Virus genome (UHGV): UHGV-0851987
Direction: 5' to 3' (one strand)
DNA from: a virus
DNA length: 31,064 bases
In this document: in pieces, positions 18 to 31,064 of the stretch
Layout of the letters: each line of letters begins with the position of its first letter
How positions within the stretch are numbered: position 1 is the first letter of the stretch
Notes under the pieces: generated by a model
Told to the model about the DNA's origin: nothing
Databases searched by the model: none
What the model saw: the letters and a program-made list of their open reading frames with translations, nothing else
Position numbers and translations under genes: made by a program

Positions 18-986
18 TTAGTAGGTTATTTTTGTTGCGAATACTTCGCCTTTTACGATGGCTGTTATGATATTTTTAGCAACATCTTCTGATGCACCAA
101 CCTTGATAAGGTCAGCAAGTATTTTGTTATTTACTTCTTTCCGGTGAGCTTTATCCTTTGCTCTACGCTCTTCTTCGTCCTTGATTCTTTTTTCTTCTGC
201 TATTCTGGCTTGCTCTTTTGCTTCAGCCTCGCGCCGGATTCGTTCAGCCTCCTCCTGTGCTTTTCGGCGTTCTGCTTCAATTGCCGCCTGCTTTTCTCTT
301 TCAGCTCGTTCTGCTGCCTTTTTTGCTTCGCGCTGTGCTCGTTGCTCGGCTTCAATGCGTTCACGCTCTGCACGTTCCGCTGCTGCCTTAGCTTCTGCTT
401 CTCGCCTTGCTGCTGCTTCAATTTCGGCTTTTGCCTTTGCTTCGGCTTCTGCTCTGGCTTTCTCTTCAGCTTCTCTTTTTAAGCGTTCTTCATGCTCTCG
501 CTTTTCCTGCTCCGCTTTGAGTCTTGCCTCTTCTCTTTTGCGGTCAAATTCGCGATCCATCAAAATAGCTATTTCATGGTCAGACTCAATTTGCTTTGCG
601 AGAGCTTCAGCTGCTGCCTTAGCTTCTTCTTCGGCTTTAATCCGCGCCTGTTCTTCCTCATAATCAGTAAGAGGCTGGCGTGCCTTGGCTTTCAGCTCAT
701 CAAGGCGATCACGCACTGTCTTGCGGTTAGCATCAATTAGCTTTGGAATTTCCTTCAGTTCAGCAACAAGGTCTTTGCCAAGACCATCGAGATATGTTTT
801 CGTCTGCGCAACTTTATACGCCAGAGAAGCGATCTCCTTTCTGCCCTTTGCCGTTGTGATATCAGGCACAAAGGACATAACTTCACGTTCAACCTTTTGG
901 AGAATTTCTTCAATCTGGTCTGCAGACTGAAATACAGTCATTGCATTTGCTTTTTCAATAACAACTAAGTCTGTTACTTCACTCAT
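18..986 (-). CDS. Conserved phage early-left protein with long Glu/Ala/Lys/Arg-rich coiled-coil core; function unknown
   Basis: Long ORF in the supplied track (18..1082); start trimmed to the ATG at 984-986, which has a GGAGG RBS (complement of 991-995) 4 nt upstream. The globular N-terminus is followed by about 170 aa of EAKAKAEIEAAARREAE-type repeats. Opposite-strand ORFs across the repeat are artefacts. Confidence 0.7.
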   Translation of the reverse strand: MSEVTDLVVIEKANAMTVFQSADQIEEILQKVEREVMSFVPDITTAKGRKEIASLAYKVAQTKTYLDGLGKDLVAELKEIPKLIDANRKTVRDRLDELKAKARQPLTDYEEEQARIKAEEEAKAAAEALAKQIESDHEIAILMDREFDRKREEARLKAEQEKREHEERLKREAEEKARAEAEAKAKAEIEAAARREAEAKAAAERAERERIEAEQRAQREAKKAAERAEREKQAAIEAERRKAQEEAERIRREAEAKEQARIAEEKRIKDEEERRAKDKAHRKEVNNKILADLIKVGASEDVAKNIITAIVKGEVFATKITY

Positions 987-998
987 ATATCCTCCATC

Positions 999-1026
999 AA
1001 AAAAAATTGCCCTCACATCGGAGGGC
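999..1026 (-). terminator. Intrinsic terminator directly upstream of the RBS of gene 18..986
   Basis: On the minus strand: GCCCTC-N6-GAGGGC hairpin (1009-1026) followed by AA and an 8-nt U run (complement of 999-1006). The geometry matches a tL-type terminator inside an N-antiterminated operon. Confidence 0.55.
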
Positions 1027-1162
1027 GAAGAAGATTTCCAATAATCAGAACAAGTCGGCTCCTGTTTAGTTACGAGCGACATTGCTCCGTGTATTCACTC
1101 GTGGGAATGAATACACAGTGCAGTGTTTATTCTGTTGTTAGTGCCAAAAATAAAGGCCACCA

Positions 1163-1414: not shown

Positions 1415-1417
1415 AGA

Positions 1418-1750
1418 TCACCCCTCATACAGTGGTTTGCTGCCTAATTTCATTTTCTGGCGACCAACACAAGTCACACCCATTTCACTGCGTGGCTTGC
1501 TGTACCATGTGCGCTGATTCTTGCGCTCAATACGCTGCAGGTTGCTTTCAATCTGTTCGTGGTATTCAGCCAGCACTGTAAGGTCTATCGGATTCAGTGC
1601 GCTTTCTACTCGTGATTTCGGTTTGCGATTCAGCGAGAGAATAGGGCGGTTAACTGGTTTTGCGCTTACCCCAACCAACAGGGGATTTGCTGCTTTCCAT
1701 TGAGCCTGTTTCTCTGCGCGACGTTCGCGGCGGCGTGTTTGTGCATCCAT
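1418..1750 (-). CDS. N: Transcription antitermination protein N (lambda type)
   Basis: Translation from the internal Met begins MDAQTRRRERRAEKQAQWKAANPLL, the arginine-rich boxB-binding motif of lambda N. AGGAGA RBS upstream of the ATG at 1748-1750. The track ORF (to 1801) is an N-terminal over-extension. Confidence 0.9.
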   Translation of the reverse strand: MDAQTRRRERRAEKQAQWKAANPLLVGVSAKPVNRPILSLNRKPKSRVESALNPIDLTVLAEYHEQIESNLQRIERKNQRTWYSKPRSEMGVTCVGRQKMKLGSKPLYEG

Positions 1751-1922
1751 CTGGATTCTCCTGTCAGTTAGCTTTGGTGGTGTGGTAGGTGGGAGACCCA
1801 TTTCGACCTGCTTCGGCCGACTTCAATTCGGCAATAGTTCCGCAGGCCTCGCCGCTTTACGTGCGACATATTCCCATCCATGAACCCTTCACCACACCCC
1901 AAAGCCTTCTGCTTTGAATGCT

Positions 1923-2125: not shown

Positions 2126-2146
2126 TGCTTTAGAGTGGTGAGGCTG

Positions 2147-2917: not shown

Positions 2918-3133
2918 ATGAGCAACCTACGAAAATATCGAGAGTCACTGAATATCTCTCAAACAACACTTGCTAAGGCGGTTGGATGCACACAGGGAGC
3001 TATTGGGCATTGGGAATCTGGTCGTCGCTTCCCAGACCTTAAAACATGCCGCGCTCTTGTTGCATGCCTAAACAAGTTAGGCGCAAAAGTCAGTCTTGAT
3101 GACGTGTTCCCTCCGGAACACAAAGCCGCTTAA
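2918..3133 (+). CDS. cro: Cro-like HTH repressor (71 aa)
   Basis: ATG at 2918 preceded by GGAGGG. The protein MSNLRKYRESLNISQTTLAKAVGCTQGAIGHWESGRRFPD has an XRE-type HTH, and its recognition-helix motif TQG-IGHW--G-R-P is shared with the CI N-domain. The track ORF 2678..3133 is an upstream over-extension. Confidence 0.8.
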   Translation: MSNLRKYRESLNISQTTLAKAVGCTQGAIGHWESGRRFPDLKTCRALVACLNKLGAKVSLDDVFPPEHKAA

Positions 3134-3141
3134 GACATTCC

Positions 3142-3173
3142 AGCTCTTACACATTCCAGCCCTGAAAAAGGGC
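3142..3173 (+). promoter_or_regulatory. nutR site (boxA plus boxB)
   Basis: AGCTCTTACA (boxA-like, 3142-3151), spacer CATTCCAG, then GCCCTGAAAAAGGGC (boxB, 3159-3173). Matches lambda nutR as I recall it. Confidence 0.85.
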
Positions 3174-3239
3174 ATCCAATTAAACCACACCTATGGTGTA
3201 TGCATTTATTTGCATACATTCAATCAATTGTTATCTAAG

Positions 3240-3276
3240 GAAATACTTACATATGGTTCGTGCAAACAAACGCAAC
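3240..3276 (-). promoter_or_regulatory. PRE-like promoter with CII-binding TTGC-N6-TTGC repeats
   Basis: Minus strand reads TTGCGTTTGTTTGC (complement of 3262-3275), overlapping the first codons of cII as in lambda PRE. Confidence 0.55.
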
Positions 3277-3549
3277 GAGGCTCTACGAATCGAGAGTGCG
3301 TTGCTTAACAAAATCGCAATGCTTGGAACTGAGAAGACAGCGGAAGCTGTGGGCGTTGATAAGTCGCAGATCAGCAGGTGGAAGAGGGACTGGATTCCAA
3401 AGTTCTCAATGCTGCTTGCTGTTCTTGAATGGGGTGTTGTCGACGACGACATGGCTCGATTGGCACGACAAGTTGCTTCGATTCTCACCAATAAAAAACG
3501 CCCGGTGTGCAAGACCGAGCGTTCTGAACAAATCCAGATGGAGTTCTGA
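3253..3549 (+). CDS. cII: Transcriptional activator CII (lambda type)
   Basis: Translation from ATG 3253 is [84 protein letters not shown]...[10 protein letters not shown], close to my recollection of lambda CII. The track ORF 3193..3549 is over-extended. Confidence 0.95.
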
Positions 3550-3606
3550 GGTCATTACTGGATCTATCAACAGGAATAATTATGACAAAACAACTCAGTC
3601 CTTACC
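3528..3606 (-). ncRNA. OOP-like antisense RNA with its terminator at the 3' end of cII (approximate bounds)
   Basis: Minus-strand hairpin (arms at 3531-3536 and 3559-3564) followed by UUGUUC. The 3' terminal sequence of cII and the following bases are lambda-like, where the OOP terminator lies. The 5' end and pO promoter are not precisely located. Confidence 0.4.
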
Positions 3607-3728
3607 AGGACAAAATTCACAAACACATACTACGTGATCGCTTCCTGTCCAGCTTCAAGCAGCCTGGTCGATTCCGGGCTGAGTTGGAAAAGGTGAAGCT
3701 GATGCAGAAGGAGAAAGGTCATGAGTAA
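3582..3728 (+). CDS. Small ORF (48 aa) between cII and the replication initiator
   Basis: ATG at 3582 with AGGA upstream; translation [48 protein letters not shown]. Below the track size cutoff. It overlaps the start of the initiator by 8 nt. P22 carries an 'orf48' at the same position as I recall. Confidence 0.4.
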
Positions 3729-4620
3729 CATATCTAATCTAGCCGAAGCCAGAGAGGCCAGAAGGCTACAACAACCGCATCAAAGCAGCGGTAAGGGGTA
3801 TGCCTTGCTGCACCGTAAAATTATGGATGTGCCGTTTTACAAGGACGCAGAAGCTGCGCATCTGTGGATTCACTTAATCCTCAAAGCAAAGCATACGCCT
3901 GAGTATGTAATGACTGACGCAGGAGAAATTCTGGTAGGCAGAGGGAAGCTACTTGGCGGTAGAAACTCTCTGGCGTTTGAAACAGGACTCAAACCAGATC
4001 GCGTTCAGTACCTGCTTAGAAAGTTCAAAAAACTCGGCATGATTGACTGGGTTTCACACGGTAAATTTTCAGTTTTCTCGGTAGAGAAATATGACGATTA
4101 TCAGTCAAATTTTGTACCAGCAGATTACCAGCAAATTACCACCTCAAAGCCAGCAATACCAATGCCTGTAAGCAATACTGTACCAGCAGATTACCAGCAA
4201 ATTACCACAGATAAAGAATATAATAATATTATCTCTAATACTGACGTATTAGAGAGTGCCACAGCAGACAAAAAGTCTGACAAGAAAAAACCTTCCGTCA
4301 GCTGTCAGGATGTTGTCGATGCTTACCACGAAATCCTTCCTGAAGCGCCAAGAATCCGCGCACTGAATGACAAGCGTAAAAACCAGATCCGAACGTTCTG
4401 GCGCAAAGCCGGAGTGATAACCCGCCAGCTTGACGGGCATGGGTTCACGATGCAGGACTGGAGAAATTATTTGAGCTACGTAGGCGAAAATTGCCGATGG
4501 ATGTTCGAAGAACGCCCAAACCATCAACGCGGAACCGTCTGGCACAAAAAGGGATTTGATTTCCTGCTTAACGACAATACCTACCTGAAAGTTCGTGAGG
4601 GTGAACACGATGACCGATAA
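3721..4620 (+). CDS. Replication initiation protein (O-like replisome organizer)
   Basis: ORF in track with RBS GGAGAAAGG before the ATG at 3721. It sits immediately upstream of, and overlaps, the helicase gene. The origin-like iterons lie inside the coding sequence. Confidence 0.85.
4114..4245 (+). repeat. Putative replication origin: two 29-bp direct repeats (iterons) plus AT-rich tract
   Basis: GTACCAGCAGATTACCAGCAAATTACCAC occurs at 4114-4142 and again at 4180-4208, each with an internal ATTACC sub-repeat. Followed by AGATAAAGAATATAATAATATTATCTCTAATA. The arrangement parallels ori-lambda inside gene O. Confidence 0.6.
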
Positions 4621-6046
4621 TTTTTATGCGCCGCCCCATAGCATCGAGGCAGAGCAGGCGGTGATTGGTGGATTGCTTCTGGATGATGACAGCAGTGAGC
4701 GCGTCCAGAAAGTTCTGGCGATGCTGAAGCCTGATTCATTTTACAGCCGACCACACAAAATCCTTTTCGAAGAAATAACCAGAATGCACCGGGAGCAAAA
4801 GCCAGTAGATGGCCTGACGCTTTTCGATGAACTGGAGCGTAAATCGTTAACGGCGTCTGTTGGCGGTTTTGCTTATATCGCTGAGATCGCAAAGAACACG
4901 CCAAGCGCAGCAAACATCGTTGCCTATGCAATGCAGGTTCGTGAAACCGCAATGGAACGCTACGCCATCAACCGCATGACTGAAGCGACGGAATTGCTCT
5001 ATTCCCGCAACGGAATGACTGCAACGCAGAAGTACGAAGCTATTCAGTCGATTTTCACGCAACTGACAGACCATGCAAAAACCGGATCGCGTCGCGGCCT
5101 TCGCTCATTTGGTGAGGTCATGGAAGACTGGGTTAGCGACCTTGAGAAGCGATTTGACCCGTCAGGCGAACAACGAGGAATGAGCACAGGGATCCCATCG
5201 CTGGACAGGATGCTGTCACCGAAAGGTCTGGTGAAAGGCTCTCTGTTTGTCATTGGCGCTCGCCCTAAGATGGGGAAAACGACGCTATACAGCCAGATGG
5301 CAATCAACTGCGCAGTGCATGAGAAAAAGCCCGCTCTGATGTTCAGCCTTGAAATGCCCGGTGACCAGATACTGGAAAAACTGGTAGGGCAGAAGTCAGG
5401 TGTTAACCCAAATATTTTTTACCTTCCAGCGACAAATGACGCTGATGACGGCTATCAGGGTGATTACGATGGTGACTTCAACAGGGCGATCGAAACAGCA
5501 AATCGCTTGAGTGAAATCGACCTGCTTTACATCGACGACACGCCGGGATTATCTCTGGCTCAAATCGTCAGTGAAAGCCGTCGAATCAAGCGAGAAAAAG
5601 GATGTGTTGGCATGATTCTGGTCGATTACCTGACACTAATGACCGCTGAGAAGGCCGATCGCAACGACCTTGCTTACGGCATGATCACCAAAGGACTGAA
5701 GAATCTTGCCAAAGAGCTTGATTGCGTTGTTGTGCTTCTGACACAGCTTAACCGCGCACTGGAAAGCCGAACCAATAAACGCCCATTACCAAGTGACTCA
5801 CGAGATACAGGGCAGATTGAACAGGATTGCGATTATTGGGTGGGGATCCATCGTGAAGGTGCTTTTGATGACAGCGTTCCTCCTGGTGAAACCGAACTAA
5901 TCCTTCGCCTCAATCGTCATGGCAATACCGGCACGGTGTATTGCATTCAGGCAAATGGCGCTATTTATGACACAGACCAACAGTCTGCTGAAATGCGCCG
6001 CCGTGAACGCGAGGAACCGCAGTCCAAGAAGAAAGGAGGATTCTGA
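4610..6046 (+). CDS. Replicative DNA helicase, DnaB family
   Basis: DnaB N-terminal domain (HSIEAEQAVIGGLLLD), Walker A GARPKMGKTT and DnaB-type C-terminal motifs. Start at ATG 4610 after GAGGG; the track start at 4595 is a short over-extension. Confidence 0.9.
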   Translation: MTDNFYAPPHSIEAEQAVIGGLLLDDDSSERVQKVLAMLKPDSFYSRPHKILFEEITRMHREQKPVDGLTLFDELERKSLTASVGGFAYIAEIAKNTPSAANIVAYAMQVRETAMERYAINRMTEATELLYSRNGMTATQKYEAIQSIFTQLTDHAKTGSRRGLRSFGEVMEDWVSDLEKRFDPSGEQRGMSTGIPSLDRMLSPKGLVKGSLFVIGARPKMGKTTLYSQMAINCAVHEKKPALMFSLEMPGDQILEKLVGQKSGVNPNIFYLPATNDADDGYQGDYDGDFNRAIETANRLSEIDLLYIDDTPGLSLAQIVSESRRIKREKGCVGMILVDYLTLMTAEKADRNDLAYGMITKGLKNLAKELDCVVVLLTQLNRALESRTNKRPLPSDSRDTGQIEQDCDYWVGIHREGAFDDSVPPGETELILRLNRHGNTGTVYCIQANGAIYDTDQQSAEMRRREREEPQSKKKGGF

Positions 6047-6315
6047 TGAATAAAAAACAATTAGCCATTCTCGAAAAGGCATGGGATGCACAAATATCAT
6101 GCGCTTTGAAAGAACAGGCACTACCAATAATCCAGACCAAATCGAAAATAGCCAGGCAGTTATGCGATGACGGATTCCTGAACGAAGTTGAGATTACGCG
6201 CCAGATGGTAACGTTCAAAGGGTATGAGATAAATCATCATGGTATAGCGGCGTATTGCTCCCATCTTCCTGATGACGTTGACATTGATGAAATGGAAAGG
6301 GAGATGAAGCAATGA
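6046..6315 (+). CDS. Hypothetical protein (89 aa)
   Basis: ORF in track. Translationally coupled (TGATG) to the helicase, with AAAGGAGGA RBS inside the helicase 3' end. Confidence 0.6.
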   Translation: MNKKQLAILEKAWDAQISCALKEQALPIIQTKSKIARQLCDDGFLNEVEITRQMVTFKGYEINHHGIAAYCSHLPDDVDIDEMEREMKQ

Positions 6316-6340
6316 CCATCTACATCACTGAGCTAATAAC

Positions 6341-6372
6341 AGGCCTGCTGGTAATCGCAGGCCTTTTTATTT
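6341..6372 (+). terminator. Intrinsic terminator (tR2-like position)
   Basis: AGGCCTGC-N8-GCAGGCCT hairpin (6341-6364) followed by TTTTTATTT. Confidence 0.6.
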
Positions 6373-6387
6373 GGGGGAGAGTAAATC

Positions 6388-6594
6388 GTGGCTGAGTTTA
6401 TGCTCGTCGCACTCAAATGCGTTGGCGTTGGATGGATTCTTCTGTCGTTTTTTATTGTTCTGCATAGCTACATTCGTCTTGTGAATGACGGTAAAGACCC
6501 ATGGTATACGTTGTTTGGCGCTGCATTTGTCTGGGTGATTATCGGTGTTATGCCTGTCGCTGTAGCAAAAATGGCGTGGCGTTTTGTTAGTTGA
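6388..6594 (+). CDS. Small membrane protein (68 aa, two predicted TM helices), GTG start
   Basis: ORF in track. GGGGGAGAG RBS 6 nt before GTG 6388. Two hydrophobic segments (VALKCVGVGWILLSFFIVL and LFGAAFVWVIIGVMPVAVA). Confidence 0.5.
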   Translation: MAEFMLVALKCVGVGWILLSFFIVLHSYIRLVNDGKDPWYTLFGAAFVWVIIGVMPVAVAKMAWRFVS

Positions 6595-6601
6595 GGTAAC
6601 G

Positions 6602-7048
6602 ATGAAGCAAATATACATGCTTCGCAACGAAGCAATCAGAAACAACGCCATAGACGCAATACTCTCACTTCCGATCGACGACAAGTCACCTCACGAAGTC
6701 CACATTAAAGAACCAAAGCGGAGCAATCCTCAAAACCGCCTTATGTGGGCGTTATTGCAGGACGTATCGCGTCAGGTGCTCTGGCATGGAGAGAGACTTG
6801 CGCCGGAGGACTGGAAAGATCTGTTCACTGCCCTGTGGCTTAAGACCAAAAAACTGGAGCAACGAAGTGCGCCTGGTATCGACGGTGGCGTTGTTATGCT
6901 TGGCGTGCGTACCAGCAAAATGCGAAAGGCCAGTATGACTGAGCTTATCGAAATCATGTTCTGGTTCGGCTCAGAGCGCAACGTGCGGTGGAGTGATGAC
7001 TCCCGGAGAGAGTATGAATGGTCACAACGAAAAGGGAGAGCTGCATGA
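6602..7048 (+). CDS. ninB: NinB-like recombination protein
   Basis: Resembles my recollection of lambda NinB (shared motifs QNRLMWALLQDVSRQV.WHG, GVRTSKM, ERNVRWSD). Start at ATG 6602 after GAGG. Confidence 0.8.
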   Translation: MKQIYMLRNEAIRNNAIDAILSLPIDDKSPHEVHIKEPKRSNPQNRLMWALLQDVSRQVLWHGERLAPEDWKDLFTALWLKTKKLEQRSAPGIDGGVVMLGVRTSKMRKASMTELIEIMFWFGSERNVRWSDDSRREYEWSQRKGRAA

Positions 7049-7572
7049 CTATCAAATCAAATACCCCGGCACACGACAAGGACTGCTGGAGAACGCCGCT
7101 TTGGCTTTTTGATGCACTGGATATTGAGTTTGGATTCTGGCTGGATTCGGCAGCGAGCGACAAAAATGCTCTGTGCGCTCACTGGCTAACTGAGGCTGAC
7201 GACGCGCTAAATTCTGAGTGGATAAGCCACGGTGCAATCTGGAATAACCCACCGTACAGCAATATCAGGCCGTGGGTGGAAAAAGCCGCTGAGCAGTGCA
7301 TACAACAGCGACAGACGGTAGTGATGCTTGTGCCAGAGGATATGTCTGTCGGATGGTTCAGCAAGGCTCTGGAGAGTGTTGACGAAGTTCGTATTATCAC
7401 TGATGGACGGATTAATTTTATCGAACCATCGACAGGGCTGGAGAAGAAGGGAAACAGCAAAGGTTCCATGCTGCTGATTTGGCGACCGTTCATCAGTCCT
7501 CGACGGATGTTTACTACCGTATCCAAAGCGGCATTGATGGCGATCGGGCAGGGCGTCAGGAGGGCGGCATGA
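7045..7572 (+). CDS. DNA N6-adenine methyltransferase (phage Dam-like, orphan)
   Basis: NPPY catalytic motif (IWNNPPYSN) and the overall phage Dam family pattern. ATGA overlap with the ninB stop; GGGAGAG RBS. Confidence 0.8.
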
Positions 7573-7745
7573 GACGACAGCGACGAAGTATCACCGACAT
7601 CATCTGCGAAAACTGCAAATACCTTCCAACGAAACTCTCCAGAAATAAACGCAAGCCAATCCCCAAAGAATCTGACGTAAAAACCTTCAACTACACGGCT
7701 CACCTGTGGGATATCCGGTGGCTAAGACATCGTGCGAGGAAATGA
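7569..7745 (+). CDS. ninE: NinE-like protein
   Basis: Translation [58 protein letters not shown] resembles lambda NinE as I recall it. ATGA overlap with the methyltransferase stop. Confidence 0.7.
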
Positions 7746-8149
7746 CAATGCTTTTAATTCAACCTGGATTTGGACTTGGCATCAAAAAAGGCCACATGTT
7801 TGGCGAGAAAGAGTCACAACGAAAAATGGTGTCTATCCGGTTGCCATTTATCAGTATTTGTTGGCTAAACAGGGAGGCAACAAATTATTGGTATACATGC
7901 GCCAGAGCAGCATTTAACGACCCTGACTGGTTTGTGAAAAACCACCACGCAGTTCGTCAGGCAAAGAGAAAGGCCAAAATGACATACATGAAGGCGTATC
8001 AAAAAGCATGGAAAGAACACCGCGATCGATACCAACAAGACATGGAAAAGCTTGAATCAGAAAACATGGAATTAAGACGAAAGCTCGGTGAAGCAAAACG
8101 AGACATTGATGCTTACAAGCGACTTTTTAATGGTGAAAGCCATGCTTAG
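7742..8149 (+). CDS. Hypothetical protein inserted between ninE and ninF (start uncertain)
   Basis: ATGA overlap with the ninE stop. The C-terminal 56 aa ([50 protein letters not shown]) are coiled-coil-like and have their own RBS (AGAGAAAGG) before the ATG at 7979, which may be the true start. Confidence 0.45.
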
Positions 8150-8318
8150 CCCATCCCAATCCCTTCAATACCAGAAAGAAAGCGTCGAGCGGGCTTTAAC
8201 GTGCGCTAACTGCGGTCAGAAGCTGCATGTGCTGGAAGTTCACGTGTGCTCCGATTGCTGCGCAGAACTGATGAGCGATCCGAATAGCTCAATGTACGAG
8301 GAAGAAGACGATGAGTGA
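8142..8318 (+). CDS. ninF: NinF-like protein
   Basis: Translation [58 protein letters not shown] resembles lambda NinF as I recall it. Start at the internal ATG 8142 after GGTGAAAG. Confidence 0.7.
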   Translation: MLSPSQSLQYQKESVERALTCANCGQKLHVLEVHVCSDCCAELMSDPNSSMYEEEDDE

Positions 8319-9063
8319 GTTAATGAATGGCAATGCCATCAAAATGACAAGCATTGAAATCGCTGAGTTGGTGGGTAAGCGTCATGACAATGTGAAACGT
8401 ACCATCGAAACGCTGGCTAAAAATGGTGTTATCCGGCTTCCTCAAATTGAGGTTTCCGAAAGAATCAATAACTTAGGGTTCAATGTTCAGTACGAGCATT
8501 ACGTCTTCGAGGGCGAACAAGGTAAGCGAGACAGTATTGTCGTTGTTGCCCAGTTGTCGCCAGAGTTCACCGCTCGTCTTGTTGACCGTTGGCGAGAGCT
8601 TGAAGAAACTGCGGTTAATATCCCCAAAACGCTACCAGAAGCATTGCGCCTTGCTGCTGATCTTGCTGAGCAGAAAATGCAACTGGAAAACCAGCTCGCA
8701 ATTGCCGCACCTAAAGTTGAGTTTGCCGATCGCGTTGGCGAGGCCAGTGGAATTTTGATTGGAAACTTTGCAAAGGTTGTTGGTATTGGTCCGAACAAAC
8801 TGTTTGCGTGGATGCGCGATCACAAAATCCTTATTGCTTCAGGTTCCCGGCGCAATGTGCCAATGCAGGAATATATGGATCGCGGCTATTTCGCAGTGAA
8901 AGAAACAGCGGTCAACACAAATCACGGAATACAGATATCGTTCACCACAAAAATCACCGGGCGTGGTCAACAGTGGCTGACCAGAAAGCTGCTCGATAAC
9001 GGAATGCTGAAAGTAACAGGCGGACGGCTTGGAATAAAAATCACCGAACTGGAGAACGCATGA
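8311..9063 (+). CDS. Phage antirepressor, Rha-type N-terminal domain plus KilAC-type C-terminal domain
   Basis: N-terminus MTSIEIAELVGKRHDNVKRTIETL is typical of Rha-family regulators; the C-terminal half is typical of KilA-C antirepressor domains. The start may be 8311, 8323 or 8344. Confidence 0.75.
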   Translation: MSELMNGNAIKMTSIEIAELVGKRHDNVKRTIETLAKNGVIRLPQIEVSERINNLGFNVQYEHYVFEGEQGKRDSIVVVAQLSPEFTARLVDRWRELEETAVNIPKTLPEALRLAADLAEQKMQLENQLAIAAPKVEFADRVGEASGILIGNFAKVVGIGPNKLFAWMRDHKILIASGSRRNVPMQEYMDRGYFAVKETAVNTNHGIQISFTTKITGRGQQWLTRKLLDNGMLKVTGGRLGIKITELENA

Positions 9064-9248
9064 ACGCCACAATTCAAACGATACCAGAGCTTCTTATCCA
9101 GACACGAGGCAATCAGACCGAAGTGGCGAGGATGCTTTCCTGCGCAAGAGGAACAGTGCTCAAGTACAACCGAGACAGCAAAGGCGATCGTCACGTAATA
9201 GTTAACGGCGTCCTGATGGTCAAACAGGGAAAGAGGGGAAGACGATGA
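9060..9248 (+). CDS. ninH: NinH-like protein
   Basis: Core GNQTEVARMLSCARGTVLKY and VNGVLMV resemble lambda NinH. ATGA overlap with the antirepressor stop. Confidence 0.7.
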   Translation: MNATIQTIPELLIQTRGNQTEVARMLSCARGTVLKYNRDSKGDRHVIVNGVLMVKQGKRGRR

Positions 9249-9733
9249 GCATAAGAGAACTAAACCTCACCAAAGAGCAGCACGAGTGGCTGAATGGCTG
9301 GCTTGAACTGTGGGGAGCATGGGTTTATTCAGGCCGCCTGGAAAAGCGCATGAGCAGCGTAATAGCGAAGTTCATGGAGAGCGTAGAGCCGGGAAGAGTT
9401 ATGACAAGGCCAATGTGTAATGATGATGATGGAATGTTGATTTCTCAGGTCGTCGATTCCGTCATGTACATTGACAAGAAAGCCTTTGGCATCCTCCTCA
9501 GCTACTACGCTCATGGATCTTCCAAGCATGCCATTGCATCTTACTATCATCGTGTCGCAAGACCTCGCAAGATGTTATGCCGGGGCGGCGGGCGTATTCA
9601 AAAACCATCGCTCGCAACCTGTCGCCGGGAAGTTGACGAAATCCTCAATGCTTCGTTGTTTATGATTTACCCGGTTCTGGATAGTGCGTTTAAAAATCGG
9701 AAACGTGTAGAGAAAATTAAACATGTAGCATAG
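9245..9733 (+). CDS. Q: Late-gene antitermination protein Q (phage 82 / QuuD-like family)
   Basis: WGAW ... RP.C.DDD motif pattern typical of the Q82/QuuD family. Position immediately upstream of the late promoter region and lysis genes. GAGGGGA RBS; ATGA overlap with ninH. Confidence 0.75.
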   Translation: MSIRELNLTKEQHEWLNGWLELWGAWVYSGRLEKRMSSVIAKFMESVEPGRVMTRPMCNDDDGMLISQVVDSVMYIDKKAFGILLSYYAHGSSKHAIASYYHRVARPRKMLCRGGGRIQKPSLATCRREVDEILNASLFMIYPVLDSAFKNRKRVEKIKHVA

Positions 9734-24171: not shown

Positions 24172-26168
24172 TGGCTAAAGCATGGAAAGATGTTATCGCC
24201 TCTCCACAGTATCAGGCGTTAGCACCAGAACAAAAAGCGCAGGCTCAGGAGCAATACTTCAATGAAGTCGTGGCCCCGCAAGCCGGAGAAAATGCAGAGC
24301 AGGCTAAGCAAGCTTTCTATGCTGCCTATCCATTGCCATCTGTGCAGCAAGTGGAGACACAGCAACCAGTAGCACAGCAACAACCACAGCAAAGTGGATT
24401 TATGTCTGATCTTGGCGAAGCAGTAAAAGAGACTGGTCGCGGACTGGTGCAGGCTGGCGTGAACGTGGCAAACATACCTGCATCAGTTGCAGATGCTGTA
24501 ACAAGCGCGGCGGCTTGGGCTGGCGGTAAACTCGGAATTGGCGATGGGACATATCACCCTGCGCCACGAGTAACAACGCAGGGATTAGAGCAGGACTTTG
24601 GCCTTCAGCAAGGCGCGCTGACTCCACAAACTACAGAGGGAAGGGTATTTGCTGAGGCATTGCCTTACCTCACTCCTGCTGGCATTGAGAGAGCGGCAAC
24701 ACAGGCACCAACACTCGCTGGTAGAATCGCTCAGGGTGCAACTCGCCTTCTCGCTGAAAACGCAGTTGGATCACTTGCTGCAAATAGTGCGAAAGATGAT
24801 GCGGAAGCACTCGCCACCGATTTAGGCGTTGGTGTGCTGGCTGGCGGCGCTATTAACGCTGCCGGACGTGGATTAGGCGCTGCTTATCGTGGCGTTCGTG
24901 GTGCTATTGCACCAGAAGCGCAGCAAGCTATCAGATTTGCAGAGCGTGAAGGAGTACCTCTGCACACCACAGACCTGTTACAGCCTACTTCCCGCGTCGG
25001 AAAAATGGCGCAAACGACAGCAGAAAATATCCCCCTGGCTGGCACAAGCGGAATGAGAGCAACGCAACAGGAAGCGAGAAGCCAGTTGGTTCAGAGATTT
25101 GCTGATAAATTCGGTGAGTATGATCCAGCGGTTGTTATTGACAGCCTTAAAGCGAAAACATCAGGAATTCGTCGCGCTGCAGGAAATCGACTGGAGCAGG
25201 TTCAGAATGCTATGGCGGGAATAAACATTCAGCCTGCAAGAGCAATTCAGCAGATTGATACAGAAATATCTAATCTGCAGAAGCTTGGTAAGGTCGCCGA
25301 TAACGAGACTATTTCAAAACTTCAGTCCTATCGTGATGAGCTTGTTCGCAATGCTGGTCCTGATGGTCCGGTAAATCTGGATTTGAAGCAATTAAGCGAT
25401 CTGCGCAGCCAGTTCAGAATGGACGTGAAGGGGGAACGACCAGTGTTACCAAACCGTTCCGATGCTGCCATTCAGCGCGTTTACAAGGCGATGACAGACG
25501 ATATCAATGGTGCCATTGATCAGAATCTTGGCAACGATACTCTCCGTAAATATCAGCAGGCCAATGCCGTCTACGCTGACGAAGCGGCGAAACTAAAGAA
25601 TACCAGGCTGAAGAATGTTCTCATGAAAGGCGACCTGACGCCGGAAGTTGTCAACAACATGCTATTCAGCAAGAACAAATCGGAAATTAAGACGCTGTAT
25701 AACTCAGTTGGTCGTGTTGGCAGGGCGCAAATGCGCAATGGCATCATTGGAAAGGCGATGGAGAAATCTGGCGGATCCCCTGACCAGTTCCTTCGGCAGC
25801 TTAACATCCTGCAAAACCAGACTGGCATCACATTTAAGGGGCAGGACGCTGCTTATCTGAAAGGATTAAAAAACTATCTGCAATCCACGCAGCAGGCTGC
25901 AAAAGCGGCAGTAACAACACCCACAGGGCAGCAAACCATCCCGTTCATTATCGGGTATGGGACGGCAATGAACCCGGCGACAACTGGCGCAGCAGTAAGC
26001 TACGGACTTCTTACTCGCGCCTATGAGAGCGAACCATTCAGAAATGCAATGCTCCGAATGGCAAACACCCCACGCGGATCAACAGCCTTTGAGAAAGCAA
26101 TGCAGCAGGCACAAAAGGCAATTAACGCTCTGACGCAGGGGGCTAAGTCTGATGCGTTGTCAGAATAG
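24171..26168 (+). CDS. Ejection protein, gp16-like (DNA transfer)
   Basis: ORF in track. TAATG overlap with the preceding gene; Ala/Gly-rich. Last gene before the tailspike. Confidence 0.7.
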   Translation: MAKAWKDVIASPQYQALAPEQKAQAQEQYFNEVVAPQAGENAEQAKQAFYAAYPLPSVQQVETQQPVAQQQPQQSGFMSDLGEAVKETGRGLVQAGVNVANIPASVADAVTSAAAWAGGKLGIGDGTYHPAPRVTTQGLEQDFGLQQGALTPQTTEGRVFAEALPYLTPAGIERAATQAPTLAGRIAQGATRLLAENAVGSLAANSAKDDAEALATDLGVGVLAGGAINAAGRGLGAAYRGVRGAIAPEAQQAIRFAEREGVPLHTTDLLQPTSRVGKMAQTTAENIPLAGTSGMRATQQEARSQLVQRFADKFGEYDPAVVIDSLKAKTSGIRRAAGNRLEQVQNAMAGINIQPARAIQQIDTEISNLQKLGKVADNETISKLQSYRDELVRNAGPDGPVNLDLKQLSDLRSQFRMDVKGERPVLPNRSDAAIQRVYKAMTDDINGAIDQNLGNDTLRKYQQANAVYADEAAKLKNTRLKNVLMKGDLTPEVVNNMLFSKNKSEIKTLYNSVGRVGRAQMRNGIIGKAMEKSGGSPDQFLRQLNILQNQTGITFKGQDAAYLKGLKNYLQSTQQAAKAAVTTPTGQQTIPFIIGYGTAMNPATTGAAVSYGLLTRAYESEPFRNAMLRMANTPRGSTAFEKAMQQAQKAINALTQGAKSDALSE

Positions 26169-26332
26169 CTTTTCAAACACCAGGAACGTGCAAAAACCAA
26201 ATATGTAGAACGCAATATTCAACAGATCTCTTTGCATAGACTCATCTCATAATTAACAAATCATAACTGACATTAGTGCAATGCTGGGCAAGTTGCATCT
26301 TGTCAGGCATTGCTACGTCCGGAGCAAATTAA

Positions 26333-28372
26333 ATGACAGACATTACAGCCAATGTTGTAGTAAGTATGCCATCGCAACTCTTCACTATGGCGCGTTCTTT
26401 TAAAGCAGTTGCCAATGGCAAAATTTATATCGGGAAGATTGACACTGACCCTGTAAATCCAGAAAACCAGATTCAGGTTTATGTGGAGAACGAAGATGGT
26501 TCTCACGTTCCTGTATCGCAACCAATCATCATTAATGCTGCTGGTTACCCGGTATATAACGGGCAGATTGCCAAATTCGTAACTGAGCAAGGCCATTCTA
26601 TGGCTGTTTATGATGCGTATGGTGCACAGCAGTTCAAATTCCCAAATGTGCTGAAGTATGATCCGGATCAGTTTGAAGCAAGATTATATGATGATGTTTG
26701 TTCTGGAAATTTTCCCAGCAAGATGGGATACATACACAACACTTTGCATGCAACATTGCGCACATTGCAACATAAGCTTGACGATATACTATCTGTTAAA
26801 GATTTTGGCGCCGTAGGAGATGGTTTAGATCATCCTCTTAGCGAAAAGTTCAGCACATTAAGTGCTGCTCAGATGGTTTATCCATTTGTTACCGCATTAA
26901 CACAAACCCAAGATTACGCTGCGATACAAGCTGCGATTAACACTGCTAAATTTATTAACGCAGGCGTGTTTCTGCCATCTGGCCAATACGTGGTAAATAC
27001 AGAAATTGTGGCGGATTATGCTCTTAGCTTATATGGCGAAGGCAGCGGTGGTTTGCGTGACATAGCCTCTACAGGTCACGAGGAATCGCCTGTTCGTGGG
27101 TCTGTAATATTGTCTAAAGTAAACCCCGGAAGAACGTTGTCAATTAATAGCACTACAGGTTTTTCATTCGGTATGACATTGCGCGACTTCGCAATATGGG
27201 GTGTGCAAGACTCTTGTGACGTGGGCCTGTATACTAACCATGTAGGTTGGACAGGGATTATGTCCGGTTTAAATATCCAACGCTTCCCAAATCAAGCGTG
27301 GGAGGTGGGCTATATTCAAGATACATACGTGAACAACTGCACTTTTTTGCTCAGCGGTTCTCAAGATAAACCTGCAGTGCACTTCCTTAACGACTCTAAC
27401 TATATCTATTTCAATGGTTGTCATTTTGAGGATACTCCTTACTTTATTAAAATGACTAATGCGTGGAACATAGCGTTCCATCATTGCCATTTCGAAGTAG
27501 CCCGTACAGTAAACGGCTCACTGGATGATAGATTTTTTTACCGAAGCGCACCCATTGACCTTGGTGCAAGCTATAGAATTCAATTTTCAGAAAATACATT
27601 CATACCGACCGATGTAGGTTACCTGTCGTCGAAACTAGATGCACCAAGAAACCAGGTTCCGTATTTTATGACGGGTTCTGGAGGTAACAGCATTAGCTTC
27701 TCTGGGGATATATTCCTGGCACCAGAAGGTAGTGTAGATGCTATGTATCTGGATTGCACAGCTGTTAGTGTATTGGGGTGTAAATTTATACGAATGTCTC
27801 CCAGCCGCGAATGTATACATATCACCGACGGACATGTAAGTAATTGCGAGATAGGGATTTCAGCCGCCGAGGACCTAACAAAATTGTACGGTATCTATGT
27901 CGGCAAAGGCGGTGTTTCAAACTGTACCTTTGGTTTCTATGAGTCTGACTCCGGTGGGAAACGAAATGAAGGCGCGCTATTATTTGGAGAGGGGAAGGCT
28001 AACGGTAATTCATACCCTGACGATGACCGTGTGTATATTTTTCTGGATTCACCAACGAAGGTTGATGGTTACGACGGTGGAGATGCAAGATTCATTACCT
28101 TAACAGAAAGCACTATTGTAGATTTAACAAAAGTTCATCCATCAACTCATTATAATATAATCGGCTCTTCGGTAGCTATTACTAACATTTATGGTGCTCC
28201 ACTAGGCAGAGACCTGATTGTACGGGTGTCTAGTGGTGATCATTCTGGTGTTAAGTACGTAGCCGGTTCTGTCGAAACTAATGGAGCTACTGATTGGGCC
28301 GCGGTGCCAAGCACAAACGCGATATTCAAATGCATTAAAGGACCGGCTGGTAAAGTGATGTATCAGTTATAA
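26333..28372 (+). CDS. Tailspike protein: P22/Sf6-type N-terminal head-binding domain plus divergent receptor-binding domain
   Basis: N-terminal roughly 115 aa ([61 protein letters not shown] ... VLKYDPDQ) match the conserved podovirus tailspike head-binding domain. The remainder is consistent with a beta-helix enzyme domain (my inference). GGAG RBS. Confidence 0.9.
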
Positions 28373-28384
28373 ACTAGTGGTGTG

Positions 28385-28411
28385 TGTTTTAAATAAACCA
28401 CCTCTAAATGA
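28385..28411. terminator. Bidirectional intrinsic terminator between the convergent tailspike and Wzy-like genes
   Basis: 10-bp stem AAACCACCTC / GAGGTGGTTT with loop TAAAT, T-rich on both sides. Confidence 0.65.
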
Positions 28412-28428
28412 GGTGGTTTTTGCAAAAG

Positions 28429-29754
28429 TTATCTTTGAGTTCTCGCAAATCTAAGGCATAGCAACACAAAAGAGAATGCCACTAAAAATACAGACATATC
28501 AACAACATAAGCAATGCCAACAGGAGGCGATAACAGTAGCTGCAAAGATCTAATATAAAAAACAGCCAAAAACGAAGATGTAAATGGAAGCATGCATCCT
28601 GAGTTTTTATACTTTGCTTTTGAAATCCTTCCTATTATAAAACCTATAATAGACGTCATAATTAAGCTTCCAATAAATCCAAAAAACACATATCCTGCAA
28701 GATCAAAGTGACTTGTTGGACCTCTTGCAATATCATCCCATGGGTACCATTGTTTCCATATCAATCTACCTACATCATTATCAAAATAGTTATATGAGAA
28801 CACGGTTTTTACAAATCCATTTCCACCTATATATCCAAATAGCTGAATAAAAGGGTTTTCAACAACTATTCTATTGATAGTGTCGTAAGGCAGAGAAAAA
28901 TAGTAAGCATCTCCATTTGCAATTATTCTCATAAGGAATAGCTCAAATATAACAGGCAAGTCTGTATACTGAGAACTGGTATAACCTATAGATTCAGATG
29001 TAAACGTCAAAATATAAAGAACATATGCAATCATGGCTGAAAAAGATACGAGACTGATTGCCAAGAACTTTAAATTTATTCTTGGAGACACACCTGAATA
29101 TATATATATTGCCGCTATTGATACTAGCGCGTGTTCAAGAAGAGAGAACTTAGCACCTGACACAAAAGACGCAATAACAGCCACTAAAATTGCAAAAAAT
29201 ATAATAATTGCTCTATTTAACTTATTTTTTGTTTTGTATATATTTATAGCCAGCATAGCTGACAATAACAATCGCACAACATCTAGTATTCTTACAATTA
29301 CTCCAAGACCTTTATTTGCCTCAAACCTTGATTCACCAAACGAAGAGAATGAAACATTTAATAAATAGTACGCTGTTAATACAACATACATAACAAAAAT
29401 AATCTTAAATGAAAATTTATAGTTGCTGTCTACCTCTCTGAAAAGAGCGTTTCTAAGACCAGCTATTGGCTTTATGTTTAGACTAAATGAAAATCTCCAT
29501 GTTATAACAAGGATAATAAAGTTAAGTAGTACCATTATGGCTAGGTAATCGTCTATGTACCCGTAAAGATATAGAATTATGACAACTGAATATGCAGTTC
29601 CAGAACCGAAGGCAAAAAAGTAGTGCGCTGGATCTATTATTCCATAGGTTGTTTTTCTTATTGCTTTGTAGCATAAGAACGCGCAAAGAAAGGTTAATAG
29701 CATGTAACCAATCCAGTGTGTGAATATAAAACTGAAAAATTCACTATCGCTCAT
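28429..29754 (-). CDS. Polytopic inner-membrane protein, candidate O-antigen polymerase (Wzy/EpsG-like) serotype-conversion moron
   Basis: 441-aa ORF with roughly 10-12 hydrophobic segments and high F/I/Y/L content. Visibly AT-rich DNA compared with the rest of the window. Located between tailspike and integrase, where P22/Sf6-type phages carry O-antigen-modifying genes. Lacks the acyltransferase-3 signature expected of an Oac-type acetylase. The function is inferred. Confidence 0.7.
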   Translation of the reverse strand: MSDSEFFSFIFTHWIGYMLLTFLCAFLCYKAIRKTTYGIIDPAHYFFAFGSGTAYSVVIILYLYGYIDDYLAIMVLLNFIILVITWRFSFSLNIKPIAGLRNALFREVDSNYKFSFKIIFVMYVVLTAYYLLNVSFSSFGESRFEANKGLGVIVRILDVVRLLLSAMLAINIYKTKNKLNRAIIIFFAILVAVIASFVSGAKFSLLEHALVSIAAIYIYSGVSPRINLKFLAISLVSFSAMIAYVLYILTFTSESIGYTSSQYTDLPVIFELFLMRIIANGDAYYFSLPYDTINRIVVENPFIQLFGYIGGNGFVKTVFSYNYFDNDVGRLIWKQWYPWDDIARGPTSHFDLAGYVFFGFIGSLIMTSIIGFIIGRISKAKYKNSGCMLPFTSSFLAVFYIRSLQLLLSPPVGIAYVVDMSVFLVAFSFVLLCLRFARTQR

Positions 29755-30168
29755 TTTTATTTCCGAATAGTTTTAAAAAAACATAAACATACGAAATTAT
29801 TAATACAGCAATCACGAATGCATGTGGCTAACTTACAATTTGCATCATACTTTGTATTTATGCCATTCATGTCAATATCATTTTATTTCCTTGACAAATC
29901 AACATTGTTACATAAGAAAGTTTCTTATGCAAAGTTAAAACCAGCTTGAAAATATTCGTTTGCTAACGAAATCAACTCAATAGAGTCATTGATAGTTAGC
30001 ACGTCTATCTCAAATGTGTTAAGAGTGATTTTGACATAAGAGGACTCTGTGCAGAGAATTTATACCATAAACAAAAACTTGTCATGGCGGGAAAAGATGG
30101 ATGCAGTATACATAATCATTAGATTACAATGTTCTGTTCCATTAGTTATCATTTAAGTGTTAGCTATT

Positions 30169-31064
30169 TCATTTGTCATCAAGCCAGTCAGCCCACCACT
30201 GCATCATCTCCCTGCGCTTATCGAGATACTGCGCATGGTTGTAAATACCGCGCACAGATCCGCCGTTGGCATGTGCCAGTTGCACTTCAATAGCATCAGC
30301 AGGCCATTCGTGCTCGTTCATAATCGTGCTGAATTCATGCCTGAATCCGTGACCGCTTTCCAGCCCTTCATAGCCAATTTGTTTGATCACAAGCAATACC
30401 GCGTTCTCGCAGATTGGCTTCTTCTTATCGTTGCGCCCGGCAAAAACAAACTCTGAGACTGGTTTGGTGATTGAGCTTAGCGTAGTGAGAAGTTCAACCA
30501 CCTGGTCTGACATCGGGACCACATGAATTTTTCGTCCCTTCATCACACTGGCGTCGATGGTGATAATCCTGTTTTCAAAATCGACGTTCTTCCATAGCAT
30601 GGAACGAAGCTCTTTCGTTCTTAGGGCTGTATAACGTAAAACTTTTGTCGCAATGAGCGATACGATACTTCCTGAAAATGTTGCCAGTGCTTTGTTGAAT
30701 GCAGGGATCTGGTCTGCTGGAAGGAACGGGAAGTTCTTCTTGCGGTATCCTTTCATGGCGTCTGCAAGGTCAGGTGCCGGGTTATATTTAGCCCTTCCGG
30801 TGACAATAGCGTAACGAAAAACCTCGCCGCATCTTCTGCGGGCTTTGTTGGCTCGCTCCATTGCACCGCGATCTTCAAATCTTCGGATTACTTCCAGCAG
30901 TTGCATCGGCTCAATATCCTGAATTTCAAGACCGCCGATGATGGGTAAAATGTCGTCATCAAACATTTTGGCAAGTTCAGTTGCATAGCCTACTGACCAG
31001 ACTTGCTTCTTGTGCTCGTACCATTCCTTGTAAATCGCACTAAATGAATTGTTGTTAGACGAAG
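30169..31064 (-). CDS. int: Tyrosine integrase (P4-like family), 5'-truncated by the window edge
   Basis: C-terminal catalytic region with HGFRHEFST and LAHANGGSVRGIYNHAQY (tyrosine recombinase R/H/Y signature region). The reading frame stays open to position 31064, so the N-terminus lies beyond the window. Confidence 0.9.
   Translation of the reverse strand, partial: SSNNNSFSAIYKEWYEHKKQVWSVGYATELAKMFDDDILPIIGGLEIQDIEPMQLLEVIRRFEDRGAMERANKARRRCGEVFRYAIVTGRAKYNPAPDLADAMKGYRKKNFPFLPADQIPAFNKALATFSGSIVSLIATKVLRYTALRTKELRSMLWKNVDFENRIITIDASVMKGRKIHVVPMSDQVVELLTTLSSITKPVSEFVFAGRNDKKKPICENAVLLVIKQIGYEGLESGHGFRHEFSTIMNEHEWPADAIEVQLAHANGGSVRGIYNHAQYLDKRREMMQWWADWLDDK

What the first reader, a model, noticed from the sequence alone, without database searches (positions are those of the whole stretch)
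26333..28372. Mosaic tailspike: conserved head-binding domain fused to a different receptor-binding domain
The first roughly 115 residues match the P22/Sf6 tailspike particle-binding domain from memory. The rest (about 560 aa) does not match the P22 endorhamnosidase body as I recall it, and I have not been able to compare it with the Sf6 body. The host range of this phage therefore cannot be read from the virion module. The C-terminal domain is likely a glycanase for an O-antigen or capsule.
Basis: partly seen in the sequence, partly recalled or inferred. Interest (0 to 1): 0.5.

Follow-up and report, generated by a model that had tools for sequence, protein, structure and literature searches.

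The report
O114-linked mosaic P22-like tailspike cassette
This is an ordinary modular phage tailspike: a conserved P22/Sf6-type attachment domain joined to an uncharacterised beta-helix sugar-cutting domain that probably targets the E. coli O114 surface antigen. It sits next to a phage-borne O-antigen polymerase gene that may have taken over from the host's own broken copy.

Summary
ORF 26333..28372 (679 aa) starts with a P22-type head-binding domain (PF09008, E 6e-65). That domain is 93-95% identical to Sf6, HK620 and CUS-3 and 74% identical to P22. DNA homology to those phages stops at codon 114 (nt 26673) and resumes at the integrase stop (nt 30173).

Host range can be inferred indirectly. 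The full gene occurs in only 4 of 5426 complete E. coli genomes, and all four are among the 9 that carry the O114 O-antigen cluster. O114 has no uronic acid, so a hydrolase is more likely than a lyase. D330, E366 and E388 are invariant candidate catalytic residues.

This makes it a new member of a known kind. The more interesting point lies beside it. The 3.5-kb swapped cassette also carries a Wzy-type O-antigen polymerase. In all four lysogens the chromosomal O114 wzy is frameshifted, by two independent alleles. It is intact in the O114 genomes that lack the cassette. A diverged copy of the same gene pair survives in Citrobacter freundii.

The parts
26333..28372 (+). Tailspike gene, 679 aa. 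It is the last gene of the virion (late) module of an Sf6-like (Lederbergvirus) prophage.
   Evidence: ORF. It follows the gp20 and gp16 homologues. The window is 95% identical to Sf6 over 78% of nt 1-25000.
26333..26674 (+). Head-binding (particle-attachment) domain, residues 1-114. This is the conserved backbone part, and the recombination junction is at its 3' end.
   Evidence: PF09008, E 6.4e-65. 93-95% identity to Sf6, HK620 and CUS-3; 74% to P22. DNA homology ends at 26673.
26675..26761 (+). Linker, residues 115-143. The model has low confidence here.
   Evidence: pLDDT below 50 for body residues 1-27.
26762..27067 (+). N-terminal cap and first rungs of the beta-helix, about residues 144-245 (boundaries approximate). 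This sub-module ([13 protein letters not shown]..) is shared with many otherwise unrelated tailspikes.
   Evidence: PF12708 at residues 192-259. phi297 gp27 and LKA1 gp49 match only this stretch. There are 40-57% partial hits to D3 orf27, Klebsiella phages and vB_EcoP-611R6. It is the most conserved block within the family.
27068..28000 (+). Central beta-helix, about residues 246-556 (boundaries approximate). It holds the putative catalytic and specificity region, with invariant Y327, Q329, D330, H364/E366 and H386/E388 (two CHFE motifs).
28037..28369 (+). C-terminal all-beta domain, about residues 569-679 (boundaries approximate). It is the most divergent part among family members.
   Evidence: Secondary structure. 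Identity falls to 15-50% in this region for the ~50%-identity homologues.
28395..28424 (.). Hairpin plus T-run between the convergent tailspike and polymerase genes. It is a likely bidirectional intrinsic terminator.
   Evidence: 10-bp stem, dG -15.8 kcal/mol, z -4.8, 0 of 200 shuffles fold as well. Sequence.
28429..29754 (-). 441-aa polytopic membrane protein, a Wzy-type O-antigen (repeat-unit) polymerase. GC content is about 31-37%.
26674..30172 (.). Variable cassette (receptor-binding body, terminator, wzy-like gene and a 414-bp spacer). It is flanked by sequence shared with Sf6, HK620 and CUS-3.
   Evidence: blastn breakpoints at 26673 and 30173. The cassette is 98.4% identical in prophages of O114 strains that have a different upstream region.
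30169..31064 (-). Integrase (IntS/Sf6 type, argW-specific). It runs off the end of the window and is not disrupted.
   Evidence: Pfam. Translation compared with Sf6 int. Identical copies of the tailspike lie at the same yfdC-adjacent site in the draft assemblies, and the O114:H49 record annotates tRNA-Arg next to intS there.

Best explanation
The gene encodes the tailspike of an Sf6-like temperate podophage. Residues 1-114 dock the spike onto the P22-type tail and belong to the conserved phage backbone. Everything downstream was acquired by recombination at the canonical YDPDQF junction. That part comprises a linker, a widely shared beta-helix cap, a family-specific beta-helix and a C-terminal beta domain. 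It belongs to a small family of receptor-binding bodies that also occurs on N4-like, Kuttervirus, lambda-like and other chassis. The body most likely binds the E. coli O114 O-polysaccharide and cuts it hydrolytically, letting the virion reach the outer membrane. The likely catalytic residues are invariant carboxylates on adjacent rungs (D330, E366, E388). The body travels as a unit with a convergent Wzy-type polymerase gene. After lysogeny this polymerase probably re-links O114 repeat units differently, removing the phage's own receptor as in epsilon15 or D3 seroconversion. Shown here: the domain architecture, the junctions, the beta-helix fold, the O114 co-occurrence and the Wzy homology. Inferred: the substrate, the hydrolase chemistry, the catalytic residues and the changed linkage.
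Against: No enzyme assay or adsorption data exist. The serogroup of the strain that gave this window is unknown. Its protein differs by 8 residues from the copy in the O114:H49 strain. The four complete genomes represent only two lineages. The model is a monomer and I could not map the invariant residues onto its surface, so the catalytic assignment rests on conservation alone. The best structural neighbours include lyases and epimerases. Other homologues of the Wzy-like protein sit next to unrelated tailspike bodies, so the pairing is not obligatory.
Confidence: 0.72

Rival explanations
1. The receptor is not the O114 O-antigen but another surface glycan shared by these strains, such as a K capsule, colanic acid or ECA. 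On this view the O114 link reflects clonal ancestry.
For: Only two host lineages are represented among the complete genomes. Pas et al. note RBP subtypes that do not track serogroup. Some PHROG families that match the head-binding domain are annotated as colanic-acid degrading.
Against: Those PHROG matches cover only the N-terminal domain. The cassette partner is an O-antigen polymerase homologue. Relatives of the body are followed by O-antigen acyltransferases. Two different prophage backbones carry the same cassette, and both are in O114 hosts.
Confidence: 0.12
2. The body is a polysaccharide lyase like LKA1 gp49 or phi297 gp27, which are its best sequence matches among solved structures.
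Against: Profile comparison aligns only the N-terminal cap: body residues 1-127 against gp49 residues 138-268. The LKA1 insertion domain and the His494-Asp497-His499 site (PMC5701251) have no aligned counterpart. The O114 repeat unit has no uronic acid for beta-elimination.
Confidence: 0.06
3. The spike is a non-catalytic adhesin or a decayed prophage remnant with no current function.
Against: The ORF is intact. The identical protein is present on at least 24 contigs together with a complete virion module. The polar and charged residues in the central helix are strictly conserved across 41 diverged homologues. All studied P22-like spikes are enzymes (established knowledge).
Confidence: 0.07
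4. For the side finding: the chromosomal wzy frameshifts are unrelated to the prophage. They could be assembly errors in homopolymers or ordinary phage-resistance mutations. The phage Wzy-like protein would then not polymerise O114 units.
For: Both lesions lie in T7 or T8 tracts. One-base wzy deletions arise readily as phage-resistance mutations (Kapi1; PMC8787464). There are only two independent events.
Against: The T7-to-T8 allele is identical in three independent assemblies. Both alleles also exist as called protein fragments on several draft-assembly contigs each: P0135 and P0136 on 11 and 8 contigs, P0137 on 4. The frameshift is present in 4 of 4 cassette carriers and in 0 of the 4 non-carrier records examined. 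One of the lysogens is labelled O114:H49 in its record.
Confidence: 0.35

Closest known systems
Tailspikes of Sf6 (gp14), HK620 (gp9), P22 (gp9) and CUS-3 (Lederbergvirus)
   Same: They share the head-binding domain (74-95% identity). The gene position is the same, after the gp16 homologue and before int. The switch point at YDPDQ(F/Y) is the same. The general design is the same, a beta-helix body followed by an O-antigen modification gene: oac in Sf6, gtr in P22, a Wzy-like gene in HK620.
   Different: The body has no significant sequence similarity to any of them. HK620's Wzy-like protein is unrelated to this one. No biochemical data exist for this spike.
Pseudomonas phage LKA1 gp49 and phi297 gp27 O-antigen tailspikes (PDB 4ru4, 4ru5)
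   Different: Similarity is confined to the cap. The LKA1 insertion domain and its His/Asp/His site are not alignable. LKA1 gp49 is a lyase acting on a uronic-acid-containing antigen, and O114 has no uronic acid.
Uncharacterised tailspikes of N4-like/Gamaleyavirus-type phages (PE007, FSL SP-076, S5, SP154, Jgk1) and Kuttervirus SS3, SS9 and SeKF_64
   Same: They are true family members, 52-55% identical over 96-99% of the body, with different N-terminal anchors.
   Different: They are lytic phages of Salmonella or E. coli. Their C-terminal third is only 20-50% identical, so specificity probably differs. I found no characterisation of any of them.
Seroconversion by phage-encoded polymerases: Salmonella epsilon15, P. 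aeruginosa D3, A. baumannii WzyPh1
   Same: A prophage carries a second Wzy that can change the linkage between repeat units. In WzyPh1 the phage enzyme makes the linkage actually found in the polymer (PMC9241936). PMC7685785 discusses the possibility for E. coli.
   Different: No Iap-like inhibitor of the host polymerase was identified here. Instead, the host wzy carries frameshifts in the lysogens. The linkage chemistry is untested.

Membership tests
P22-like (Lederbergvirus) tailspike | N-terminal head-binding domain (Pfam PF09008) | tested here: met
   E 6.4e-65 over the full profile. 74-95% identity to P22, Sf6, HK620 and CUS-3.
P22-like (Lederbergvirus) tailspike | Last gene of the virion module, after the ejection-protein genes (gp7, gp20, gp16) and before the conversion gene and int | tested here: met
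   The layout is the same as in Sf6.
P22-like (Lederbergvirus) tailspike | Right-handed parallel beta-helix receptor-binding body | tested here: met
P22-like (Lederbergvirus) tailspike | Homotrimer | not tested
   Only a monomer was modelled. No multimer prediction was available.
P22-like (Lederbergvirus) tailspike | Endoglycosidase activity on host O-antigen with catalytic carboxylates | not testable with these tools
   Invariant D330, E366 and E388 are candidates from conservation only.
P22 endorhamnosidase, Sf6 endorhamnosidase and HK620 endo-N-acetylglucosaminidase bodies | Sequence homology of the catalytic body | tested here: not met
   There are no significant BLASTP hits to P22, HK620 or CUS-3. 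Sf6 gives 22% over 241 aa, which is marginal.
LKA1 gp49 / phi297 gp27 O-antigen lyase | Homology across the catalytic beta-helix, including the His494-Asp497-His499 site and the beta-barrel insertion domain | tested here: not met
   hhalign aligns only body residues 1-127 with gp49 residues 138-268. The profile search of PDB gives the same limited stretch.
LKA1 gp49 / phi297 gp27 O-antigen lyase | Uronic-acid-containing substrate suitable for beta-elimination | tested here: not met
   The inferred substrate O114 consists of GlcNAc, Qui3N(AcSer), Ribf and Gal. This rests on the inferred substrate.
Wzy O-antigen polymerase (neighbouring gene 28429..29754) | Match to a curated repeat-unit polymerase model | tested here: inconclusive
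   TIGR04370, E 2.8e-8, 33.2 bits against a cutoff of 40. No Pfam hit.
Wzy O-antigen polymerase (neighbouring gene 28429..29754) | Homologue occupying the wzy position of a Wzx/Wzy-type O-antigen gene cluster | tested here: met
   P0179 (37% identity) lies between wzx/GT2 and gnd in an Enterobacter cloacae cluster.
Wzy O-antigen polymerase (neighbouring gene 28429..29754) | Polytopic membrane protein with a SEDS/WaaL-like fold | tested here: met
epsilon15/D3-type polymerase seroconversion module | Phage-encoded inhibitor of the host polymerase (Iap-like) | tested here: inconclusive
   The 414-bp spacer contains only short ORFs of 20-77 aa with no support. No homology search was run on them.
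epsilon15/D3-type polymerase seroconversion module | Altered inter-repeat linkage in lysogens | not testable with these tools
   This needs NMR of the lysogen O-polysaccharide.

The most novel reading that the evidence does not exclude
The tailspike body and the convergent Wzy-type polymerase form an old, co-diverging cassette that both recognises the receptor and rewrites it. In at least two independent E. coli O114 lineages, including the ETEC lineage of 90-9280, ETEC-2264 and E2980, the phage polymerase would have functionally replaced the chromosomal Wzy, which has decayed by poly-T frameshifts. If so, the 'O114' antigen of these pathogens is a phage-made polymer, possibly with a different inter-unit linkage. 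The prophage, or at least its polymerase gene, would then be needed for smooth LPS. The Citrobacter locus, where only the truncated spike and the polymerase remain beside an IS, would be a domesticated end-state of the same process.
Probability: 0.4. Interest if true: 0.65.

Novelty: new member of a known kind. Interest (0 to 1): 0.42.

Why it matters
For the tailspike itself, the result adds a candidate O114-specific receptor-binding module to the catalogue of serogroup-specific spikes. O114 is not covered by the 2023 survey of E. coli RBP subtypes. O114 strains include enterotoxigenic isolates from human diarrhoea, so such a module could serve for typing, for engineered tailocins or phages, or as a depolymerase.

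The side finding could matter more. If the prophage polymerase has replaced the host Wzy, in-silico serotyping from the rfb cluster would misjudge the real antigen in these strains. It would also make a natural E. coli counterpart of epsilon15/D3 conversion directly testable with existing strains.

Tried and rejected
1. P22, HK620 or CUS-3 body homology: tested and absent.

2. Membership of the LKA1-type lyase family: rejected, because only the cap aligns and O114 lacks uronic acid.

3. Disrupted integrase. The ORF list showed only 265 aa. Translation shows the gene simply runs off the window end.

4. Homology between the phage Wzy-like protein and either O114 Wzy or HK620's Wzy-like protein: none detectable. 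This is uninformative, since Wzy proteins diverge fast.

5. tblastn of the Wzy-like protein against 50,697 phage records: no hit.

6. Strict co-inheritance of this Wzy family with this spike family: rejected. Morganella and Enterobacter prophages pair Wzy homologues with unrelated spikes. Homologues of the body at 48-49% and 74% identity pair with acyltransferases. Only the Citrobacter copy keeps the pair.

8. Consensus promoter and terminator scan of 26000-30400: no enrichment over shuffles, and it missed the clear hairpin at 28395.

9. Supplement searches for O114, SS9 or FSL SP-076 in two tailspike surveys: nothing found.

10. Literature search for an O114 tailspike or an O114 prophage wzy: no relevant paper in the library.

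Full report
**Observation**

An ATG-initiated ORF lies exactly at 26333..28372 on the + strand and encodes 679 aa. Pfam places a full-length Head_binding domain (PF09008) at residues 1-113 with E 6.4e-65. It also gives a weak pectate-lyase-like hit (PF12708) at residues 192-259.

In the PDB sequence search, residues 1-116 match the Sf6 and P22 tailspike N-termini. Downstream, only residues 144-259 match anything, namely Pseudomonas phage phi297 gp27 and LKA1 gp49.

Residues 1-116 are 93% identical to Sf6, 95% to HK620, 95% to CUS-3 and 74% to P22. Residues 117-679 give nothing significant against P22, HK620 or CUS-3. The only hit is a marginal 22% over 241 aa against the Sf6 helix.

**Context and junctions**

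The window is an Sf6-like (Lederbergvirus) prophage, 95% identical to Sf6 over 78% of nt 1-25000. It has the usual order: N, repressor, replication genes, Q, lysis, terminase, portal, coat, ejection proteins, tailspike.

blastn shows that homology to Sf6, HK620 and CUS-3 ends at nt 26673 and resumes at nt 30173. Position 26673 lies in codon 114, the F of the conserved YDPDQF motif. Position 30173 is next to the integrase stop codon.

The swapped segment 26674..30172 contains four elements:
- the receptor-binding body;
- a strong hairpin plus T-run between the convergent genes (dG -15.8 kcal/mol, z -4.8);
- a 441-aa membrane protein on the minus strand, in DNA of about 31-37% GC;
- a 414-bp spacer.

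The integrase simply runs off the end of the window.

Megablast against 50,697 phage records never extends beyond about nt 354 of the gene. In 5426 complete E. coli genomes, 1020 have the head-binding part but only 4 have the whole gene, at 98% identity. In three of those four, the cassette is attached to a different upstream region (an immI region with arc and ant), yet it is 98.4% identical from nt 26318 onward. The cassette has therefore moved between backbones.

**What the body is**

I aligned residues 117-679 with 40 homologues. The AlphaFold2 model has mean pLDDT 89.7 and pTM 0.86. After a disordered linker it is almost entirely beta.

All of these are right-handed parallel beta-helices.

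The resemblance to LKA1 and phi297 is limited. Profile comparison aligns only body residues 1-127 with gp49 residues 138-268, at 35% identity. A profile search of the PDB finds the same short stretch. This N-terminal cap ([13 protein letters not shown]..) is a widely shared sub-module. It is also found at 40-57% identity in D3 orf27, in Klebsiella phages and in another P22-like spike, vB_EcoP-611R6. It is the most conserved block in the family. The protein therefore has at least three mosaic layers: the head-binding domain, the cap, and a family-specific helix with a C-terminal domain.

**Family and distribution**

The body is 52-55% identical over nearly its full length to unstudied tailspikes of N4-like phages (PE007, FSL SP-076, S5, SP154, Jgk1) and of Kuttervirus SS3, SS9 and SeKF_64. 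It is 70-82% identical to metagenomic and prophage proteins that carry other N-terminal anchors such as PF18668.

The family is small. Using residues 251-679, an exhaustive search of 1.84 billion cluster representatives finds 47 proteins at E<=1e-3 and 9 at E<=1e-30.

The identical 679-aa protein is on at least 24 contigs of E. coli assemblies. In every place shown it lies beside yfdC and has a complete virion module upstream. RefSeq already names it 'phage tailspike protein'. I found no characterised member and no paper on an O114 tailspike in the searchable library.

**Likely substrate and chemistry**

All four complete genomes with the gene carry the O114 wzx/wzy cluster, which is present in only 9 of 5426 genomes. 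My hypergeometric calculation gives P of about 3.5e-12. Counted conservatively as two independent lineages, it is about 3e-6. Two lineages are indicated by the different prophage backbones and by different wzy SNPs. Assigning specificity from the serogroup of the host of a single-RBP Lederbergvirus prophage is an accepted approach (PMC10408124). That study did not cover O114.

The O114 repeat unit is ->3)-a-D-GlcNAc-(1->4)-b-D-Qui3N(N-acetyl-L-seryl)-(1->3)-b-D-Ribf-(1->4)-b-D-Gal-(1-> (PMC10609480). It has no uronic acid, so beta-elimination is implausible and hydrolysis is the likely chemistry.

Across 41 homologues, Y327, Q329, D330, E366, H386 and E388 are invariant, and H364 is conserved in 40 of the 41. 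The last four residues lie in two CHFE motifs on adjacent rungs. I propose D330, E366 and E388 as the catalytic carboxylates, by analogy with P22, Sf6 and HK620. This is inference only, because I could not inspect the model's coordinates.

**The neighbouring gene**

Homologues at 48-50% identity lie next to tailspikes in Morganella and Enterobacter prophages, but those spikes are unrelated to this one. More distant relatives of this body are followed by acyltransferases. So the general rule 'receptor-binding body plus O-antigen modification gene' holds, with variable partners.

In Citrobacter freundii CP109719, however, an N-terminally truncated copy of this body (72% aa identity) is followed by a convergent 441-aa Wzy-like gene (58% aa identity). 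The two are colinear with the window over 2.6 kb at 66% DNA identity. The locus lies beside an IS and thrS and has no prophage. This particular pair is therefore old and has co-diverged.

**Side finding: host wzy frameshifts**

In all four complete genomes that carry the cassette, the chromosomal O114 wzy is annotated as frameshifted. Alignment shows two different lesions:
- T7 to T8 near nt 410 in 90-9280, ETEC-2264 and E2980;

The four O114 records without the cassette that I examined (TW10828, WS0115A, AHB3, FDAARGOS_1287) have an intact 443-aa Wzy. A fifth record without the cassette has the same match length and the same record length as the AHB3 record, and I did not examine it.

Both alleles also exist as called protein fragments on several contigs each in public draft assemblies. 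One strain, E. coli 2867750, has both a wzy fragment and the phage protein. The T7-to-T8 allele is identical in three independent complete assemblies. Long-read homopolymer error is therefore unlikely.

One reading is that the phage polymerase has taken over polymerisation, as in epsilon15, D3 or A. baumannii WzyPh1 (PMC9241936). The host gene would then have decayed. The alternative is that the frameshifts are ordinary phage-resistance mutations of the kind seen with Kapi1 (PMC8787464). I found no Iap-like inhibitor in the spacer. The library holds no paper that reports this pattern.

**Verdict**

As a tailspike, this is a new and uncharacterised member of a well-known modular kind, and by itself it is of modest interest. 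The refinements made here are the exact junctions, the three-layer mosaic, the beta-helix confirmation, the probable O114 specificity with hydrolase chemistry, and membership of a small cross-chassis family. The more noteworthy result is the linked spike-polymerase cassette and its perfect, though small-sample, association with inactivated host wzy. That association is directly testable with existing strains.

Noticed in passing
window 28429..29754 (-); loci L013-L020: A prophage Wzy-type polymerase sits beside the tailspike. In all 4 complete E. coli genomes with the cassette, the chromosomal O114 wzy is frameshifted in a poly-T tract, by two independent alleles. It is intact in the 4 O114 records without the cassette that I examined.
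   Followed up: partly
L028 6001..8964 (Citrobacter freundii CP109719): A diverged, colinear copy of the same two-gene cassette: an N-truncated spike body at 72% aa identity and a Wzy-like gene at 58%. It lies next to an IS and thrS with no prophage, so it is a possible domesticated remnant.
   Followed up: partly
window 26762..27067: There is a second mosaic boundary inside the spike. The beta-helix cap ([13 protein letters not shown]..) is shared at 35-57% identity with LKA1 gp49, phi297 gp27, D3 orf27, Klebsiella phage spikes and another P22-like spike, while the rest of the helix is not.
   Followed up: yes
window 18..1082 (-): A 354-aa ORF lies leftward of the N gene (1418..1801) in the leftward early region. 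It has no Pfam or PADLOC match and only unknown-function PHROGs (phrog_1376). The region has a strongly negative AT skew (-0.41). It may be an accessory or exclusion gene.
   Followed up: partly
window 26169..26332 compared with L001 3160..5900: As in Sf6, this prophage has no immI region (arc, ant, mnt) between the gp16 homologue and the tailspike. The O114:H49 prophage carrying the same cassette does have one. An Ant/KilAC-Rha protein is encoded elsewhere in the window (8311..9063).
   Followed up: no
window 28395..28424: A 10-bp GC-rich hairpin with A-run and T-run flanks lies between the convergent tailspike and wzy-like genes. It is a likely bidirectional terminator that the consensus scan missed.
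   Followed up: yes
window 29755..30168: A 414-bp AT-rich spacer lies between the wzy-like gene and int. It contains only short unsupported ORFs (20-77 aa). An Iap-like inhibitor of the host polymerase could hide here but was not identified.
   Followed up: partly
L002 5811..7037 (HK620): HK620 also carries a Wzy-like 'O-antigen modification protein' after its tailspike. It is unrelated in sequence to the one here. Polymerase-type conversion genes may therefore be recurrent in E. coli P22-like phages.
   Followed up: partly
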